A stretch of DNA of 64,000 bases. It comes from Candidatus Thorarchaeota archaeon (GTDB lineage: Archaea > Asgardarchaeota > Thorarchaeia > Thorarchaeales > Thorarchaeaceae). Where the stretch lies: NCBI GenBank assembly GCA_963726195.1, contig CAVSBO010000005.1, positions 160,001-224,000 of the forward strand. The letters are read 5' to 3'. The notes under the pieces are model-generated. The model did no database searches. It saw only the letters and a program-made list of their open reading frames with translations, and was not told the origin of the DNA. Shown here one piece after another: positions 48,678 through 54,747 of this stretch. The position numbers and the translations under genes are program-made. The first letter of the stretch is position 1; each line of letters starts with the position of its first letter.

Positions 48678-51044
48678 GTGCCAGCCGCGAATGGAAGGCG
48701 AAATCAGTTGGATTCACCAAGAGTTCTGTTTGAGATCAAGGATGACGTGAGCACAAGTGCTATCGCTGTGGGGGACCTTGCAGGCTCGCCACTGCCTGAG
48801 TTATGCACTGGTGGTCGTGATGGAGTGCTCCGCGTCTATAGCGCAGACAAGACTGGGGTTGAGTTCCTAGCCCAGCACAACGTCGAGGGAAGCATCCTAT
48901 CAATTGAAATCGCCGACGCAAACAACGACAACCAAAACGAACTAGTAGTTGGCAGAAGTCTGGGTCCTCACGACGTTGCTGGCGAAGCCGGGACACTCCA
49001 GATTTATCGAATTACGTCCGCGAATGCATTCGAGCTTCTGGCTGAATACCCTGTCGACCGCTTTGTGACAACTGTTCACGTTACGGATGTCACGGGTGAC
49101 GAGAAGAACAAGATACTCGCGGGCGGGAGCGACTCCACTTTGAGAGTCTTTGAAATGGACGGCGAGAATAACCTGCGTGAGTTTGCTCGTTACCAACTTG
49201 AAGACATGCCAATCACGATTGGCACCTGTGACGTCGATGGTGACGAAATCGACGAGATAGTCACAGGTAACCGCGACAAGACGCTACGCGTGTTCAGGGT
49301 TAAGGACAACTCCATCGAGCAGATGGACGTCATGAATTTGCCCAGCCCTGTCGTGTCCATTGCTTCCGGTGACTTGCTTGGAGATCGCAAGATGGAGCTT
49401 GCAGTTGTGACCTACGATGGATCAATCAGGGTCTATCGCAACGAAGAGAACAAGCTTGAGCTCTTTTCTATGCTTGAAAAGGTCAAGGCTCTCTCTGTGA
49501 GGATTGAGGAGCTGAATGCTGACCACTTGGATGAATTGGTTGTTGCTACTTCAGACGCAAGAATCGTCTTCTATAATGTCCAAGCGGCGGAGCTGCAAGA
49601 ATTGGCAGTAGTCAACATTGGAACTAAGATTCTTGCAATCAGCGTGGGTGATGCTAACGGGAATGGCCGCAAGGAGGTCTTGGTCGGCGTATCCAACGCC
49701 CCATTGAAGGTGGTCGATGGTCTGTACACCATCATACCGAAGTTTGAGGTCAGTACTGAGGCAATGGCTGGCAGCCAACTCACCGGCATGTTCACGATAA
49801 CAAACGTTTCAGACAAGCAGGTGAGTGGAATCTCAGGGAAGGTTTACTGGTTCCCGAAGAGCGACATGGAAATCACTCCTCAGCAACTTCGGTTTGACTT
49901 GGAACCGCATGAGACAAAAGCGACTGAGTTGCAGCTCACGCCCAATGTTGAAGGAACTATCATCGTGAGACCCATAGTTATGATGTGGACTGATATCACT
50001 GGCCAAGTTAGACAGGCCACCACGCCTGAGACACCGATACTGGTACAGGGCGGTAGTGCAATTGCAGTACCTGTTGCTAGCACTCGGATTGTCGCCGCTT
50101 CTGAGCCTGAGCCTGTGGCACCTGAAATTGAGGATGAGTTATCGTATGAACCGATGGTTGGCACCGGTTTTGGTGCGGTACACGCAGCCGAAGCTGAGAT
50201 GCCATCAGATGAGGCGGCTGTTTCAGCTAGCACCGAAGAGACGCTCAAAGCTGCAGAAGAGCTTCTGGAGAGGATCTTCGACGAGTCTCCAAGACAGGTG
50301 GAACTGAGCAGAATAACGACCGAGTCTATTAGTGAAGAAGAGACAGAAGAACTGACGGTGGCGCCCTCCGTTGCAGGCCTGAATGAGAGTGCGATTGTTG
50401 CAGAGATACGTGGGCGCAAAGCGAAGCCGCCGAAACCAGGTATGACATCGGATGGCTATAGCTATCTCTTCAAGACAATGGTGATTGGCGAGGGTGCTGT
50501 CGGCAAGACCGCCCTTGTAAGCCGATTTACCACTGGGCAATTTGAGAAGGATTACAAGACTACCATAGGTTCGCAGTTTGCAGTGAAGCTGACATACATC
50601 TCGCCGACTGATTCTGAGTATGCCGTAGGAATCAAGATTCAGGCGTGGGATGTTGCTGGGCAGGCGCGCTTCAAGGCCGTTCGCAAGATGTACTACAGCG
50701 GGGCAGCTGGGGTTATTCTCGTCTTCGATGTCACCCGACGGAGATCATTCACTGAGCTCGTCAAATGGGTCGAGGAATCTGATGATTCAGTTGGCGGACG
50801 TGTTCCGATGGTCTGTGTTGGCAACAAGATTGACTTGCCAGACAGGGCGGTTCCCGGTGATGAGGCCAAGCAATGGGCCGAGTCGCAAGGGTTCATCTAC
50901 ATGGAGAGCAGCGCCAAGACCGGAGAAGGAGTGGCCGATATGTTCTCAGTGCTGGCAGAGCTTATGTGGACAGAGACCCGCAAAATGACTGATTCAAAGA
51001 AGTCTGGCGATAGCAAGAAGAGTGGAGAAGGCAAGAAGCGCTAG
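48678..51044 (+). CDS. FG-GAP beta-propeller + Ig-like domain + acidic linker + Rab-like small GTPase fusion
   Basis: About seven DxxGD-type loops; G1 GEGAVGKT, G2 TIG, G3 WDVAGQ, G4 NKID, G5 ESSAK. Confidence 0.9.
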   Translation: MPAANGRRNQLDSPRVLFEIKDDVSTSAIAVGDLAGSPLPELCTGGRDGVLRVYSADKTGVEFLAQHNVEGSILSIEIADANNDNQNELVVGRSLGPHDVAGEAGTLQIYRITSANAFELLAEYPVDRFVTTVHVTDVTGDEKNKILAGGSDSTLRVFEMDGENNLREFARYQLEDMPITIGTCDVDGDEIDEIVTGNRDKTLRVFRVKDNSIEQMDVMNLPSPVVSIASGDLLGDRKMELAVVTYDGSIRVYRNEENKLELFSMLEKVKALSVRIEELNADHLDELVVATSDARIVFYNVQAAELQELAVVNIGTKILAISVGDANGNGRKEVLVGVSNAPLKVVDGLYTIIPKFEVSTEAMAGSQLTGMFTITNVSDKQVSGISGKVYWFPKSDMEITPQQLRFDLEPHETKATELQLTPNVEGTIIVRPIVMMWTDITGQVRQATTPETPILVQGGSAIAVPVASTRIVAASEPEPVAPEIEDELSYEPMVGTGFGAVHAAEAEMPSDEAAVSASTEETLKAAEELLERIFDESPRQVELSRITTESISEEETEELTVAPSVAGLNESAIVAEIRGRKAKPPKPGMTSDGYSYLFKTMVIGEGAVGKTALVSRFTTGQFEKDYKTTIGSQFAVKLTYISPTDSEYAVGIKIQAWDVAGQARFKAVRKMYYSGAAGVILVFDVTRRRSFTELVKWVEESDDSVGGRVPMVCVGNKIDLPDRAVPGDEAKQWAESQGFIYMESSAKTGEGVADMFSVLAELMWTETRKMTDSKKSGDSKKSGEGKKR

Positions 51045-51067: not shown

Positions 51068-51667
51068 TCAGTGTTTCACGGCTTCGAACCCGGCGTCGAA
51101 CGCGGTCAGGTTGGCTTCCTTAGGCGTCATGAGCTTGCCCACGGACTCCCTGATTTGAGCATCTTTGATTGGCAGCTTCTCGACTGCAGCTCCTGCACCC
51201 AGCACGAAGGAGTTCAGGGCGCGTGAACCGCTTGATTCCTGAAAAGCCCTCGACAACTCAACAGGATGAATTGCGGAACATATGGAGGATAGAGCTTCGA
51301 TAATGTCATCTACGGACGGATACTTGCTCTGACCCGATAGAGACTGCAAGGTCTGTACGGGACTGAGACTCACAATAATAGCTGTGGTTCTTCCAGCGTA
51401 TGATACCGCAGCTCGCAGAGATTCCATGGGTTCGAGCCCTAGTATTAAGTCTGCCATGCCTGCCGGTATCAGGGGTCCGACATCATCAGTTGCTATTCGA
51501 ACGTGAGTGAAGACCGTGCCGCCCCTACGAGATGCGCCAAAGGTTTCTCCTATGACCGGCCTGTACCCTGCTGAGAATGCAGCGTCTGCTAGTACTCGGC
51601 CGGAGAGAAGGTTACCCTGTCCCCCTACTCCAGCTATGATCACATTACAGGGTCTTTGCAGATTCAT
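51068..51667 (-). CDS. iorB: Indolepyruvate:ferredoxin oxidoreductase beta subunit
   Basis: AGVGGQG, GASRRGG, LEPMESLR, NLTAFDAG. Confidence 0.88.
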   Translation of the reverse strand: MNLQRPCNVIIAGVGGQGNLLSGRVLADAAFSAGYRPVIGETFGASRRGGTVFTHVRIATDDVGPLIPAGMADLILGLEPMESLRAAVSYAGRTTAIIVSLSPVQTLQSLSGQSKYPSVDDIIEALSSICSAIHPVELSRAFQESSGSRALNSFVLGAGAAVEKLPIKDAQIRESVGKLMTPKEANLTAFDAGFEAVKH

Positions 51668-53542
51668 TCACCCCCGGATATGGCACCATGAGGACAGACG
51701 TCGATGCAGGCACCGCAGCGCACACACAGCTCATCAGAGATAATGGGTAGACCCCGTTCGAGATCCCAGCCGATTGCAGGGCAGCCGTACTGCGAGGCGC
51801 AGATTTTGCAGCTCTCACCATGACATAGTTGGTCGTTGATTACAACAGGCCCCTCGCTTTTCTTGGTCGCACCGTGACGCTCCTCCTCGAGCCTGCAAAC
51901 GCTGTTCAGGATGAGGACATTAAGTCCGCGTTTCTCTACAGTTGACCCGATGAGATTCATCACAGACTCGATATCTATGGCGTCACCTGTCGCCATGAAG
52001 TCGGGCTCGACTGCCTCGACCAGCTTGGCGATACTGACCCTTCGGTGGCCCTTCTCCTGCAACGCTGATCCCGGATGTGTCTGAAAACCGGTCATTGCAG
52101 TGGTTCCGTTGTCGAGTACTAGGAATGTGATGTCAGCATTCTTGTGCCTAGCGTTGACGAGAGCGGGCATACAAGCGTGAAAGAAAGTAGAGTCTCCAGC
52201 AACAGCGACAACTCGCGAGTCAAAGCCGAAACGACCCAGTTGTCCCAGCCCGCACGCTGTTCCGATACCTGAGCCCATAGCCTGCATCGTCTGCATTGCC
52301 TCATCGTAGAACACGCCCATCGAATAGCAGCCTATGTCTCCAGCCACCACAAGCCGGTCGCCGAGTCTTTTCCTTATTTTGCGGAGTACCCAGTATACGT
52401 TCCTGTGTGTACATCCTGCGCAGAACGTAAGAGGTCGAGGGATGAGCAACCTTCTCTGCCTTCTCGATTGCACTTAGTTCTGGCCGATGGCCTTTGCTGC
52501 TTCTTACCAGTCGCGTGTCCTTGAGCGCATGAAGGACGGTGTCAACGTTCATCTCGCCCCAACTTGGAATGGCGCCTGTCCGCTTGCCTAGGAACTGTGG
52601 GAGTGTCCCTCGTGCGAGGCTAGTAGCCAGTGCACGCGTTTCGTCTTCGATGAATGGGTCGGTCTCCTCAACAAATAGGACCTTCTTGGCTTTGAAGAGG
52701 GCCTTAGTAACCATGTGCATTGGGAGGGGATTAGTAGTAGTCAGTCCTAGGAATCCTATGTCAGAGGCTTCAGCAAGAGCAAGTGCTTCCTTAGCATAAA
52801 GACCGCAGATTCCTGAAGCGATCACGAGACCCTCCATATTCTTTGGTAGACTGTGCACATTCAGAGGCGATTTCTCAAACTCCGCCGCGATGAATGTGAG
52901 CTTGTCGAGAAGTTCTTTGTGCTTTACGGATGGTTGGGGCACGTTGTAGAGACCTTTTGGCAGAGGCCTCACAACGACTGGCGGTCGTTGAGATATGTCT
53001 CCAATCGTTACCACTCCTCGAGAGTGGCTTAGGCGTGTCGTGCTTCTAACAAGAACGGGTATCTCGTACTTCCTAGAGATATCGAGAGCGCTAAGCATGA
53101 CGTCCCTTGCCTGCTGACAGCTACTTGGTTCCAGCATCGGGAGCATTGCGGCCTTGGAGTAGAACCTTGAATCCTGTTCATTGCTCGAACTGTGCCCTTG
53201 GGGGTCATCACAGACAACAATGACTAAACCACCTTTTCCCGTGCCCGACAGGTTTACATTCAGCAGAAAGTCAGCCGCCACATTCAGGCCCAGCGACTTC
53301 ATGGGGCAGATTGCCGGCACCCCTGCCCAGCTTGCCCCGGCCGCCGCCTCGAGAGCAACCTTCTCATTGGCGCTCCACTCCACATAGAGGTTCAGCTTCT
53401 CGGCGCTGTCCATTATGCTCTCGGTTATCTCCGTAGAAGGAGTCCCCGGATAGGAAGCGCAGAAAGTTACTCCTGCCTCCATAGCCCCTCGAGCCATGGC
53501 CTCATTGCCGCTCATGACGATGGAAGAACCGGAATTCGCCAT
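51664..53542 (-). CDS. iorA: Indolepyruvate:ferredoxin oxidoreductase alpha subunit; frameshift near 52450
   Basis: GNEAMARG, YPGTPSTE, NEKVALE, NEQDSR, FCAGCTHR, GDIGCY, GDSTFFH, C-terminal ferredoxin. Confidence 0.92.
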
Positions 53543-53663
53543 CTGCTCAAGCTCTGTCCAGTGAGGTTGAGTACCAAAGAAAACGATTTCGGAATGTCTC
53601 GGATTGGCAGACACACGACGGAAACAATGAAAAGCCGAAGTCCGCGTCCACACTTGAGTCAAG

Positions 53664-54747
53664 ATGACAGAACCGGGCGAGCTCGGGGCCTCGAGGATCA
53701 GCTCAGTATTCTCAATTTCCCACGAGAAGGATGTCGATGGTTTGCTCTCTGCAGTAATCGTCTCGCGATACGCCAATTCCAAGAACCTCAAGTATGGCTT
53801 TACTCTCACTGACTACGGTCAGTTCGAGGCAGTGTTCCCGAGAGCCGCGAGCATGAGGAATAGTCTAATCGTTGTCACTGATCTAGGCCTCGATGACCAT
53901 TCGATTGACATCGTCACAGCTTCTCTGAGCAAGGCCGTAGCCCAAGGTTGTCGCGTAGTCTGGCTCGATCATCATGACTGGACAGACAGGGCGGTGAAAT
54001 CCATTCTAACGCTCGGAGGCGGCCCTCGACTAACAGTTAATCATGAGTTCTGTGCCTCCGAGATAGCGTTCAAGGTTCTCATGCCTAGAGACGATATGTC
54101 GAGAGAACTAGCAAGGATAGCTCATGACACTGACTTCAACATCAGAGAAATCGAGTCAGCGAATTCGTTGACTGATGCGATGTCTCTCATCAGGTTTGGA
54201 GTAGTCGACAAGGGTCAGGATTTCACAGAAGCAATAACCCCGATTCTGAAGAGCTTGGCTGAAGATGGAATAGCAGGCGTATGGGATGAGAGTGCAAAGA
54301 GGTTCCGGGACAATCTGCTAAACCAGCGAGTCGACAGCTGATAGGAAAGAAAAGATCAAGAAAATGAGGAAAGCGCTTGCTGGACGTTCCGACCTAGAGG
54401 TGCGTGGCTGTCTTGTCAGGATTGTCGAGATACCAAACGGTGTGACTACCACAGACATGGGCACATGGGCCGCAGACGAGCGAAACCTCAAGGTGGGCGA
54501 CGAGCAGTTACGGGTCGCCGACATGCTTGTCACGTTAAGCCCAAACGGATTACTTGGCTTTAGGCGTGGCCAAGACAGGATTCTGTGCAATGTTGCAGCA
54601 AGGTTGTTCAAGGGAGGCGGTCATCCCTATGCGGCCGGAGGTGAATACGGTATGTATCACGACTTCCAGGCCGCGTGCGATGACATCTTTACGACGCTTT
54701 CGACAACTAAGGACTGGATTTCGGCAGAAGAAAACGGTCTGTCGTAG
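53664..54747 (+). CDS. DHH/DHHA1 phosphoesterase (RecJ/NrnA-like); frameshift near 54340
   Basis: HEKDVDG, TDL, DHH, GGGHPYAAG. Confidence 0.88.

What the first reader, a model, noticed from the sequence alone, without database searches (positions are those of the whole stretch)
48678..51044. Beta-propeller/Ig/Rab fusion resembling a coat- or BBSome-type subunit joined to its GTPase
Seen: no signal peptide; a ~7-blade FG-GAP-like propeller, a ~105-aa Ig-like domain, a ~130-aa acidic linker, and a GTPase with intact G1-G5. All five RabF-like motifs are recognisable (IGSQF, KIQAW, RFKAV, YYSGA, LVFDVT), and the tail is polybasic (KKSGDSKKSGEGKKR) with no prenylation Cys. Known: BBS2/7/9 are propeller + GAE proteins in a complex recruited by a small GTPase, and ITFG2 is a cytosolic FG-GAP protein. 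Inference: a Rosetta-stone fusion for a proto-coat or tether that binds membranes electrostatically.
Basis: partly seen in the sequence, partly recalled or inferred. Interest (0 to 1): 0.8.

Follow-up and report, generated by a model that had tools for sequence, protein, structure and literature searches.

The report
Thorarchaeal propeller-tethered Rab-like GTPase
This is a real gene, conserved in every searched genome of one order of Asgard archaea, that ties a Rab-type GTP switch by a long acidic leash to a cytoplasmic seven-bladed propeller and an Ig-like domain. I found no paper on the combination, and its likeness to eukaryotic BBSome and KICSTOR parts is a likeness of propeller class that does not show ancestry.

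Summary
ORF 48678-51044 (+) is intact (788 aa; homologues suggest a TTG start at 48711, 777 aa). It encodes a 7-bladed FG-GAP-class propeller, a ~105-aa beta-sandwich, a ~130-aa acidic, mostly disordered linker with three conserved motifs, and a Rab-like GTPase with intact G1-G5 and RabF-like motifs.

The fusion is no assembly artefact. It is single-copy and full-length (apart from contig breaks) in 85/85 genomes of the window's family and in the only other family of the order. It was not found in other Asgard lineages.

The closest solved structures are BBS2, BBS7, BBS9, BBS1 and ITFG2. The margin over ordinary WD40 propellers is small. Ordinary prokaryotic FG-GAP/VCBS proteins hit the same Pfam BBS/ITFG2 models. 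The BBS-specific helix, platform and coiled-coil domains are missing. The Ig domain leans weakly to ASH and gave no match to any GAE family.

The polybasic tail belongs to this genus only. The rest of the family has 12-14-aa tails of net charge +1 to +3.

My reading is a self-contained switch-plus-scaffold protein. A proto-coat role is possible but not shown.

The scan has already reported this gene in at least 10 other Thorarchaeal genomes, with the same verdict.

The parts
48678..51044 (+). Whole ORF (788 aa from GTG, stop codon included). It stands alone on the + strand between genes on the - strand.
48711..48713 (+). TTG, the likelier true start codon (gives 777 aa)
   Evidence: Orthologue N-termini align from here. 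DNA read.
48723..49715 (+). Seven-bladed FG-GAP-class beta-propeller (aa ~16-346). Blade loops are of the form D-x-[DN]-x-[DNG]-...-E-[LIV]-[LIV]-x-G.
49731..50048 (+). Ig-like beta-sandwich (aa ~352-457). It follows the propeller directly, with no helix in between.
   Evidence: AF2 model. Weak sub-threshold Pfam ASH hits in 17 of 23 orthologues, plus fn3_6 and Transglut_C.
50049..50447 (+). Acidic, mostly disordered linker (aa 458-590, net charge about -17)
   Evidence: Composition. pLDDT below 50 in the full-length model. No Pfam hit.
50160..50171 (+). Conserved linker motif 1: GTGF (aa 495-498)
   Evidence: Nearly invariant in 24 orthologues
50238..50288 (+). Conserved linker motif 2: an amphipathic helix, ETLKAAEELLERIFDES (aa 521-537). 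The family consensus is ESLKAAEELLDQLFG.
   Evidence: Invariant A526, E527, L529 and F534. Predicted as a helix, at low confidence.
50385..50441 (+). Conserved linker motif 3: a basic, Pro-rich pre-GTPase segment, ESAIVAEIRGRKAKPPKPG (aa 570-588). The family consensus is ESxLVxEIRxRxPKPPRPG.
   Evidence: Invariant S571, I577, R580, K583 and P587. pLDDT ~70-77 with a short helix.
50448..50975 (+). Rab-like small GTPase domain (aa ~591-766) with intact G1-G5, the catalytic Gln662 and RabF1-5-like motifs
   Evidence: Pfam Ras 155 bits. Best PDB hits are Thor-Rab 7EZB, then Rab14, Rab11, Rab25 and Rab2. Motif coordinates.
50976..51041 (+). Lys-rich C-terminal tail (aa 767-788, net about +5, no Cys). 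This long form is specific to the genus.

Best explanation
This is a cytoplasmic multidomain Rab-like GTPase, present as a single copy in every searched genome of one Asgard order (Thorarchaeia type).

**Shown.** A Rab-like domain with every residue needed for GTP binding and hydrolysis is joined covalently to a protein-binding platform. The join is a ~130-aa acidic, mostly disordered leash that carries three conserved motifs. The platform is a 7-bladed FG-GAP-class propeller followed directly by an Ig-like beta-sandwich.

**Inferred.** The protein is a self-contained switch plus scaffold. The nucleotide state of the Rab-like domain decides whether that domain, or the conserved linker motifs, engage the propeller-Ig platform. 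The engagement could be within one chain or between copies. That in turn decides which partners, or which surface, the platform holds. The leash keeps the local concentration of switch and platform high, so no separate recruitment step is needed.

The propeller belongs to the same broad class as those of eukaryotic BBS1/2/7/9, ITFG2 and integrin alpha. That is likeness of class and does not demonstrate descent.
For: - **Intact and under strong constraint.** More than 120 full-length orthologues share 60-83% identity. More than 200 columns are invariant across propeller, Ig and GTPase.
- **Always fused.** The only shorter database entries are labelled partial. The fusion is in 85/85 genomes of the family and in the sister family. 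There is no propeller paralogue in the window's own genome.
- **Confident fold of the N-terminal module.** pLDDT 90.7, pTM 0.85.
- **GTPase motifs are all invariant**. The fused GTPase domains form their own clade with 99/98 support.
- **A relative is an active enzyme.** The related free-standing Thor-Rab hydrolyses GTP about as well as human Rab11B (PMC10933270).
- **The linker is more than a spacer.** It is disordered but holds three conserved motifs.
- **The protein is cytoplasmic.** There is no signal peptide or TM segment.
- **The gene is monocistronic,** and its neighbours are unrelated in function. They are oxidoreductase and ABC-transporter genes on the other strand, in conserved synteny.
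Against: - There is no experimental datum on this protein.
- The full-length AF2 model gives no confident position of the GTPase relative to the platform (pTM 0.58).
- No partner gene is linked to it in the genome.
- Whether any membrane is involved is unknown. Thor-Rab showed no membrane targeting when expressed in human cells, and Asgard genomes lack the Rab prenylation machinery (PMC10933270).
Confidence: 0.6

Rival explanations
1. First reader's reading. The protein is a single-chain proto-coat or tether that shares descent with BBSome (BBS1/2/7/9) or KICSTOR (ITFG2) subunits. It is fused to the GTPase that recruits it, and it binds membranes electrostatically through a polybasic tail.
For: - BBS2, BBS9, BBS7 and BBS1 are the top Foldseek hits (E 2e-18 to 8e-14), followed by ITFG2.
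- The family profile finds ITFG2 (9e-9), BBS7 (5e-4) and BBS2 (8e-3) in the PDB. It finds no integrin at E <= 0.01.
- BBS1 is a propeller plus an Ig-like domain, and its propeller binds ARL6-GTP (PMC7018513). The parts list is therefore parallel.
Against: - Prokaryotic FG-GAP/VCBS proteins are the nearest sequence relatives (E 1e-32 to 1e-14). They hit the same BBS and ITFG2 Pfam models above cut-off.
- The model shows no helix between propeller and Ig, and no platform or coiled-coil domain. PMC7018513 gives those domains as the BBS2/7/9 architecture.
- The GTPase is Rab-like, whereas the BBSome recruiter ARL6 is Arf-like.
- The long basic tail is confined to one genus.
- The protein is confined to one order and was not found in the other Asgard families searched.
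Confidence: 0.12
2. The protein is a soluble signalling or regulatory scaffold with no membrane role. The propeller-Ig platform holds a cytoplasmic client such as a cytoskeletal, proteostasis or nucleic-acid factor. The tethered Rab-like GTPase acts as a timer or gate, as in other prokaryotic multidomain Ras-like GTPases.
For: - No membrane-targeting feature is conserved across the family.
- Related cytoplasmic FG-GAP propellers in other Asgard archaea are fused to modules that have nothing to do with trafficking. P0154 carries four winged-helix repeats, and P0137 carries TPR and CHAT domains.
- Liu et al. note that most multidomain Asgard ESP architectures are lineage-specific shuffles not seen in eukaryotes (10.1101/2020.10.19.343400).
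- Thor-Rab was diffuse in human cells (PMC10933270).
Against: - Nothing identifies a client.
- Rab-like sequence features and the conserved basic segment before the GTPase would also suit a membrane role.
Confidence: 0.25
3. The protein is an extracellular or surface FG-GAP adhesin, like most prokaryotic FG-GAP/VCBS proteins.
For: The nearest non-orthologous sequence relatives are large FG-GAP/VCBS repeat proteins.
Against: - There is no signal peptide or TM segment.
- An invariant, complete GTPase domain needs cytoplasmic GTP.
Confidence: 0.01

Closest known systems
Thor-Rab (PDB 7EZB/7EZD/7EZE; Tran et al. 2024, PMC10933270) and the free-standing Rab-like GTPases of Asgard archaea
   Same: - It is the best PDB match of the GTPase domain (155 bits).
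- Both have RabF1-5-like motifs.
- Neither has a C-terminal Cys.
- Both come from the same archaeal lineage.
   Different: - Thor-Rab is a 182-aa stand-alone protein. It is nearer to the free paralogue in this genome (183 bits), which is only 52% identical to the fused domain.
- The fused domains form a separate clade.
- The fused form carries about 590 extra N-terminal residues.
BBSome subunits BBS1/2/7/9 with their recruiter ARL6 (PMC7018513)
   Same: - Both have a cytoplasmic 7-bladed FG-GAP-class propeller followed by an Ig-like sandwich.
- Both work with a small GTPase.
- They are the top structural hits.
   Different: - The Thorarchaeal protein has no dimerisation helix, platform or coiled-coil domain.
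- Its Ig domain is not shown to be GAE.
- Its GTPase is Rab-like and covalently attached. ARL6 is Arf-like and a separate protein.
- Sequence identity is 12-18%.
ITFG2 of the KICSTOR complex (PDB 9o5a, 9v6e and others)
   Same: - It is the best profile-to-PDB sequence match (E 9e-9, colinear from the N-terminus).
- It shares the blade motif that ends in E-[LIV]-[LIV]-x-G.
   Different: - ITFG2 is a propeller alone, with no Ig domain and no GTPase.
- Identity is 15%.
- I did not look for KICSTOR partners in this genome.
Prokaryotic FG-GAP/VCBS repeat proteins and integrin alpha chains
   Same: - They share the repeat class. They are the nearest non-orthologous sequence relatives (26-30% identity, E down to 1e-32).
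- Integrin alpha also has an Ig-like 'thigh' domain directly after the propeller (structural matches).
   Different: - Most are large, multi-propeller and mostly extracellular.
- None in the lists seen carries a GTPase.
Other multidomain small GTPases: Asgard longin- or roadblock-GTPase fusions (PMC10933270; 10.1101/2020.10.19.343400) and ROCO proteins
   Same: A Ras-superfamily switch is built into a larger chain together with protein-interaction domains.
   Different: - The partner domains are different.
- Pfam found no COR domain, so this is not a ROCO protein.

Membership tests
Ras superfamily, Rab-like small GTPase | G1-G5 nucleotide-binding motifs and the catalytic Gln | tested here: met
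   GEGAVGKT, T628/T629, DVAGQ, NKID and SAK are present and invariant in the family. Pfam Ras scores 155 bits against a cut-off of 21.6.
Ras superfamily, Rab-like small GTPase | RabF1-F5 family motifs, and Rab proteins as nearest relatives | tested here: met
   IGSQF, KIQAW, RFKAVR, YYSGA and LVFDVT are present. After Thor-Rab, all of the top 60 PDB hits are Rab, Ypt or Sec4 proteins.
Eukaryotic Rab proper | A hypervariable C-terminal extension ending in prenylatable Cys | tested here: not met
   The tail has no Cys. Only 1 of 112 orthologue tails holds a Cys. Asgard genomes lack REP and RabGGTase according to PMC10933270.
FG-GAP-class beta-propeller | Seven FG-GAP-type blades with acidic loop motifs | tested here: met
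   Pfam FG-GAP_3 scores 70 bits against 26.9. The AF2 model has 28 strands. Blade motifs.
BBS2/BBS7/BBS9 (BBSome core) | Five-domain architecture of propeller, dimerisation helix, GAE, platform and coiled coil (PMC7018513) | tested here: not met
   The model shows the beta-sandwich directly after the propeller with no helix in between. After it come a disordered linker and a GTPase, with no platform or coiled-coil domain. Pfam gives no hit for aa 465-600.
BBS2/BBS7/BBS9 (BBSome core) | Specific sequence membership (Pfam Beta-prop_BBS7, BBS2_Mid, PHTB1_N) | tested here: inconclusive
   Scores are above cut-off: 59.5, 56.9 and 29.7 bits. Ordinary prokaryotic FG-GAP proteins reach the same or higher scores on these models, so the hits do not discriminate.
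BBS1-like (propeller + GAE) | The Ig-like domain is of the GAE type | tested here: inconclusive
   Only sub-threshold Pfam hits were found: ASH in 17/23 orthologues (best E 3.5e-5), fn3_6 and Transglut_C. The profile against PDB gave nothing meaningful.
ITFG2 (KICSTOR) | Sequence and fold match to ITFG2 | tested here: inconclusive
ITFG2 (KICSTOR) | Partner subunits (KPTN, SZT2, KICS2) present in the genome | not tested
   No search was made for them.
Protocoatomer (coat, NPC, HOPS-type) | A beta-propeller followed by an alpha-solenoid | tested here: not met
   After the propeller come a beta-sandwich and a disordered linker. There is one short predicted helix and no solenoid.
ROCO | A Roc GTPase followed by a COR domain | tested here: not met
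   The Pfam Roc hit overlaps the Ras hit. No COR family was reported, and the protein ends about 22 aa after the GTPase.

The most novel reading that the evidence does not exclude
The protein is a living single-chain version of the 'small GTPase recruits a propeller adaptor' logic of eukaryotic trafficking. The Rab-like domain in its GTP form engages a membrane or an organising partner. The ASH-like Ig domain or the propeller top face binds the switch regions or the conserved linker helix of a neighbouring copy. The molecules then assemble into a lattice or tether. If so, a BBSome/KICSTOR-class propeller already worked with a Ras-superfamily switch in an Asgard lineage.
Probability: 0.12. Interest if true: 0.85.

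Novelty: new variant of a known kind. Interest (0 to 1): 0.5.

Why it matters
**Why it is worth attention**
- Asgard small GTPases are a main line of evidence for early membrane or organisational complexity in the archaeal ancestors of eukaryotes. What they act on is almost unknown.
- Here the switch is physically tied to its likely working partner, a propeller-Ig platform of the class used by the BBSome and KICSTOR.
- The protein is kept in every searched genome of the order. That makes the pair directly testable in vitro without having to guess the effector.

**Limits**
- It is confined to Thorarchaeia-type genomes.
- The likeness to eukaryotic complexes is one of class.
- I found no paper on the architecture. 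One 2026 preprint lists a 'BBS7/ITFG2' Asgard-eukaryote structural cluster in passing (10.64898/2026.10.28.762692).

Tried and rejected
- **Complex prediction.** I sent propeller-Ig (A2) with the GTPase and its N-terminal extension (A5), plus GTP and Mg. The result was no verdict (score 0.00, controls not run). It counts neither for nor against binding.
- **Full-length AF2 model**. The linker is disordered and pTM is 0.58, so no interdomain arrangement can be read.
- **Ig-domain profile against PDB sequences**. It returned only chance-level hits.
- **Profile search for a free-standing propeller-Ig protein**. It returned only fused orthologues and partial entries.
- **Propeller-Ig query on 121 Asgard genomes**. 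Outside the order it found only weak generic propeller hits (best E 4.5e-15, 22-33% identity).
- **Neighbouring genes**. Synteny with oxidoreductase, ABC-transporter and DHH genes is conserved. They lie on the other strand and are functionally unrelated, so I dropped them as partners.
- **GTPase tree**. The fused clade is solid, but its sister group among Thorarchaeal and other Asgard Rab-like clades is unresolved. No eukaryotic sequences were available through the tools, so no Rab-subfamily placement was attempted.
- **The blade motif ending in Glu as a marker of kinship with BBS/ITFG2.** Rejected. BBS7 blades are mixed D and E, and 28% of generic motifs also end in E.
- **Literature searches.** 'FG-GAP + Asgard' and 'Thorarchaeota + FG-GAP + GTPase' found no papers. 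'Bardet-Biedl + Asgard archaea' found 4 papers, judged from their titles and abstracts not to bear on this protein.
Full report
**What is there**

The window carries one uninterrupted ORF at 48678-51044 on the + strand (788 aa from GTG). It sits alone on that strand, between an ABC-transporter ATPase gene and a 2-oxoacid:ferredoxin oxidoreductase operon on the other strand. Orthologues start at the position of residue 12, so TTG at 48711 is the likelier start, giving 777 aa. There is no signal peptide or membrane segment. The first 25 residues average -0.64 in hydropathy, and the highest 19-residue window in the protein is 1.41.

**Anatomy**

- An AF2 model of residues 12-472, built on 25 orthologues, is confident (pLDDT 90.7, pTM 0.85).
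- It shows 28 strands forming seven blades (aa ~16-346). A beta-sandwich follows directly at aa ~352-457.
- Pfam gives FG-GAP_3 (70 bits), Beta-prop_BBS7 (59.5), BBS2_Mid (56.9), Itfg2 (30.7) and PHTB1_N (29.7), all above their cut-offs. It also gives Ras at 155 bits for aa 599-762.
- Residues 459-590 are acidic (27 D/E, 10 K/R, net -17). They are mostly disordered in the full-length model, with pLDDT below 50.
- This linker is more than a spacer. GTGF (495-498), an amphipathic helix (521-537, consensus ESLKAAEELLDQLFG) and a basic, Pro-rich segment just before the GTPase (570-588, consensus ESxLVxEIRxRxPKPPRPG) are conserved across the family.
- The GTPase has G1 to G5, the catalytic Gln and five RabF-like motifs. 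All are invariant or nearly so.

**Is the fusion real, and how widely is it kept?**

- More than 120 full-length orthologues (757-826 aa, 60-83% identity) come from independent assemblies. One lies on a 3.16-Mb contig.
- I searched 400 Asgard species genomes. The full-length protein, or pieces cut by contig ends, is in 85 of 85 genomes of the window's family.
- It is also in the single genome of the only other family of the order, at 43-45% identity. That copy corresponds to cluster P0124 (781 aa, Ras domain present).
- Every other Asgard family matches only the GTPase part.
- A search with the propeller-Ig part alone finds nothing outside the order better than E 4.5e-15 at 22-33% identity.
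- The window's own genome has no paralogue of the propeller.
- All shorter database entries are labelled partial.
- The gene is therefore a single-copy, order-wide invention, or a survivor found only there.

**The GTPase**

- Its best solved relative is Thor-Rab (7EZB, 155 bits). Next come Rab14, Rab11, Rab25, Rab2, Rab1 and Sec4/Ypt proteins.
- Thor-Rab is a 182-aa free-standing protein with RabF-like motifs and GTPase activity similar to Rab11B. It has no prenylatable Cys, and Asgard genomes lack REP and RabGGTase (PMC10933270).
- This genome has 13 Ras-superfamily loci at E <= 1e-10. The closest to the fused domain is 52% identical, lies about 70 kb upstream and is nearer to Thor-Rab (183 bits).
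- In a maximum-likelihood tree of 43 domains, the fused domains form one clade (99/98). Its sister among Thorarchaeal and other Asgard Rab-like clades is unresolved.

**How specific is the BBSome/KICSTOR likeness?**

Points in favour:
- The top Foldseek hits in the PDB are BBS2 (2e-18), BBS9, BBS7, integrin alpha-6 and BBS1, then ITFG2 (TM 0.68 on the target, rmsd 4.2 A).
- The family profile finds ITFG2 (9e-9), BBS7 (5e-4) and BBS2 (8e-3) among PDB sequences, and no integrin at E <= 0.01.

Points against specificity:
- In a search of 1.84 billion representatives, only three clusters are orthologues. The next hits are giant FG-GAP/VCBS proteins (26-30% identity, E 1e-32 to 1e-14), some named as bacterial VCBS or S8-peptidase proteins.
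- Those ordinary proteins also pass the Pfam BBS2_Mid, Beta-prop_BBS7, BBS1 and Itfg2 models.
- The domains that define BBS2/7/9 beyond the propeller are not present. These are the dimerisation helix, the platform and the coiled coil (PMC7018513).

On the Ig domain, 17 of 23 orthologues give sub-threshold hits to the ASH family (best E 3.5e-5). Fewer hit fn3_6 or Transglut_C, and none hits a GAE family. A propeller followed directly by an Ig domain is also the integrin-alpha arrangement.

The likeness is therefore real at the level of the FG-GAP propeller class. It does not show that this protein is a BBSome or KICSTOR ancestor.

**The tail**

It is shared only with the two closest relatives. 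Of 112 orthologue tails, 75 are 14 residues long, and 94 carry a net charge of +1 to +3. One contains a Cys. A conserved electrostatic membrane anchor at the C-terminus is not a family feature. The basic segment before the GTPase is conserved and could be tested in its place.

**Mechanism**

- What is shown: a complete switch, a confident interaction platform, a flexible leash with conserved motifs, a cytoplasmic location and strong purifying selection on all parts.
- What I infer: the protein is a self-contained switch plus scaffold. The nucleotide state of the Rab-like domain controls what the propeller-Ig platform holds, through contacts within one chain or between copies.
- I could get no computational support for a docked arrangement (the complex job is listed under things tried).
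- Related cytoplasmic propellers in other Asgard archaea are fused to unrelated modules, such as four winged-helix repeats in P0154. This fits the lineage-specific domain shuffling described for Asgard signature proteins (10.1101/2020.10.19.343400).

**Novelty**

- Full-text searches for FG-GAP with Asgard or Thorarchaeota found no papers. 'Bardet-Biedl' with 'Asgard archaea' found four papers, judged from their titles and abstracts to be unrelated.
- Tran et al. 2024 and the Asgard structural-modelling paper do not mention a propeller-GTPase fusion.
- One October 2026 preprint lists a 'BBS7/ITFG2' cilium-associated Asgard-eukaryote structural cluster in one line.
- The same scan has already reported this gene in at least ten other Thorarchaeal genomes, with the same conclusions. 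I read those notes after forming my own view, and they agree with it.
- I class it as a new variant of a known kind: a multidomain Asgard small GTPase with an undescribed architecture.

Noticed in passing
window 51664-53809 (- strand): The oxidoreductase gene with POR_N and TPP_C domains appears as two overlapping ORFs of 269 and 502 aa. In the syntenic loci L011 and L012 it is one gene of 609-618 aa. This is probably a frameshift or indel in this assembly, or a real split.
   Followed up: partly
window 53664-54747 (+ strand): The DHH-family gene is in two pieces of 225 and 127 aa in different frames. The syntenic gene is 357 aa in L011 and L012. Together with the item above, this suggests indel errors or decay around the finding. 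The finding's own ORF is intact.
   Followed up: no
L055:331-2043(-), L056:1952-3871(+), L058:2017-3999(+): In other Asgard families (f22, f21), the closest GTPase relatives (46-51% identity) sit at the N-terminus of 570-660-aa proteins. A long middle part has no Pfam match, and the C-terminus is a zinc ribbon. This is a different and recurrent multidomain Rab-like architecture.
   Followed up: partly
P0154 (796 aa, Promethearchaeota MAG) and P0145: This is a cytoplasmic FG-GAP propeller of the same 'BBS-like' flavour. It is followed by a Pro-rich linker and four repeats of a winged-helix-like unit (DUF5817_CT hit). P0157 (393 aa, Helarchaeales) is such a propeller on its own.
   Followed up: partly
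L015:1501-2019 (+), own genome contig C5 139438-139956, about 70 kb upstream of the finding and outside the window: This is a free-standing Rab-like paralogue, 52% identical to the fused GTPase domain. It is the nearer relative of the crystallised Thor-Rab (7EZB, 183 bits).
   Followed up: partly
window 48723-49715 and orthologues: The acidic residue that closes each blade loop motif is Glu in 314 of 314 motif matches in the family. It is Glu in 27 of 28 matches in small Asgard propellers, and in only 28% of matches in generic FG-GAP hits. The ITFG2 blades seen in the alignments also end in Glu, while BBS7 is mixed. The meaning is unknown. It may be a calcium-site variant of cytoplasmic propellers.
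   Followed up: partly
L013:9794-13486 (- strand): In the divergent sister-family locus, a 319-aa Arf-family protein and an 886-aa protein with no Pfam hit lie just downstream of the DHH gene that neighbours the fusion gene. These two were not seen beside the fusion gene in the window or in L011.
   Followed up: no
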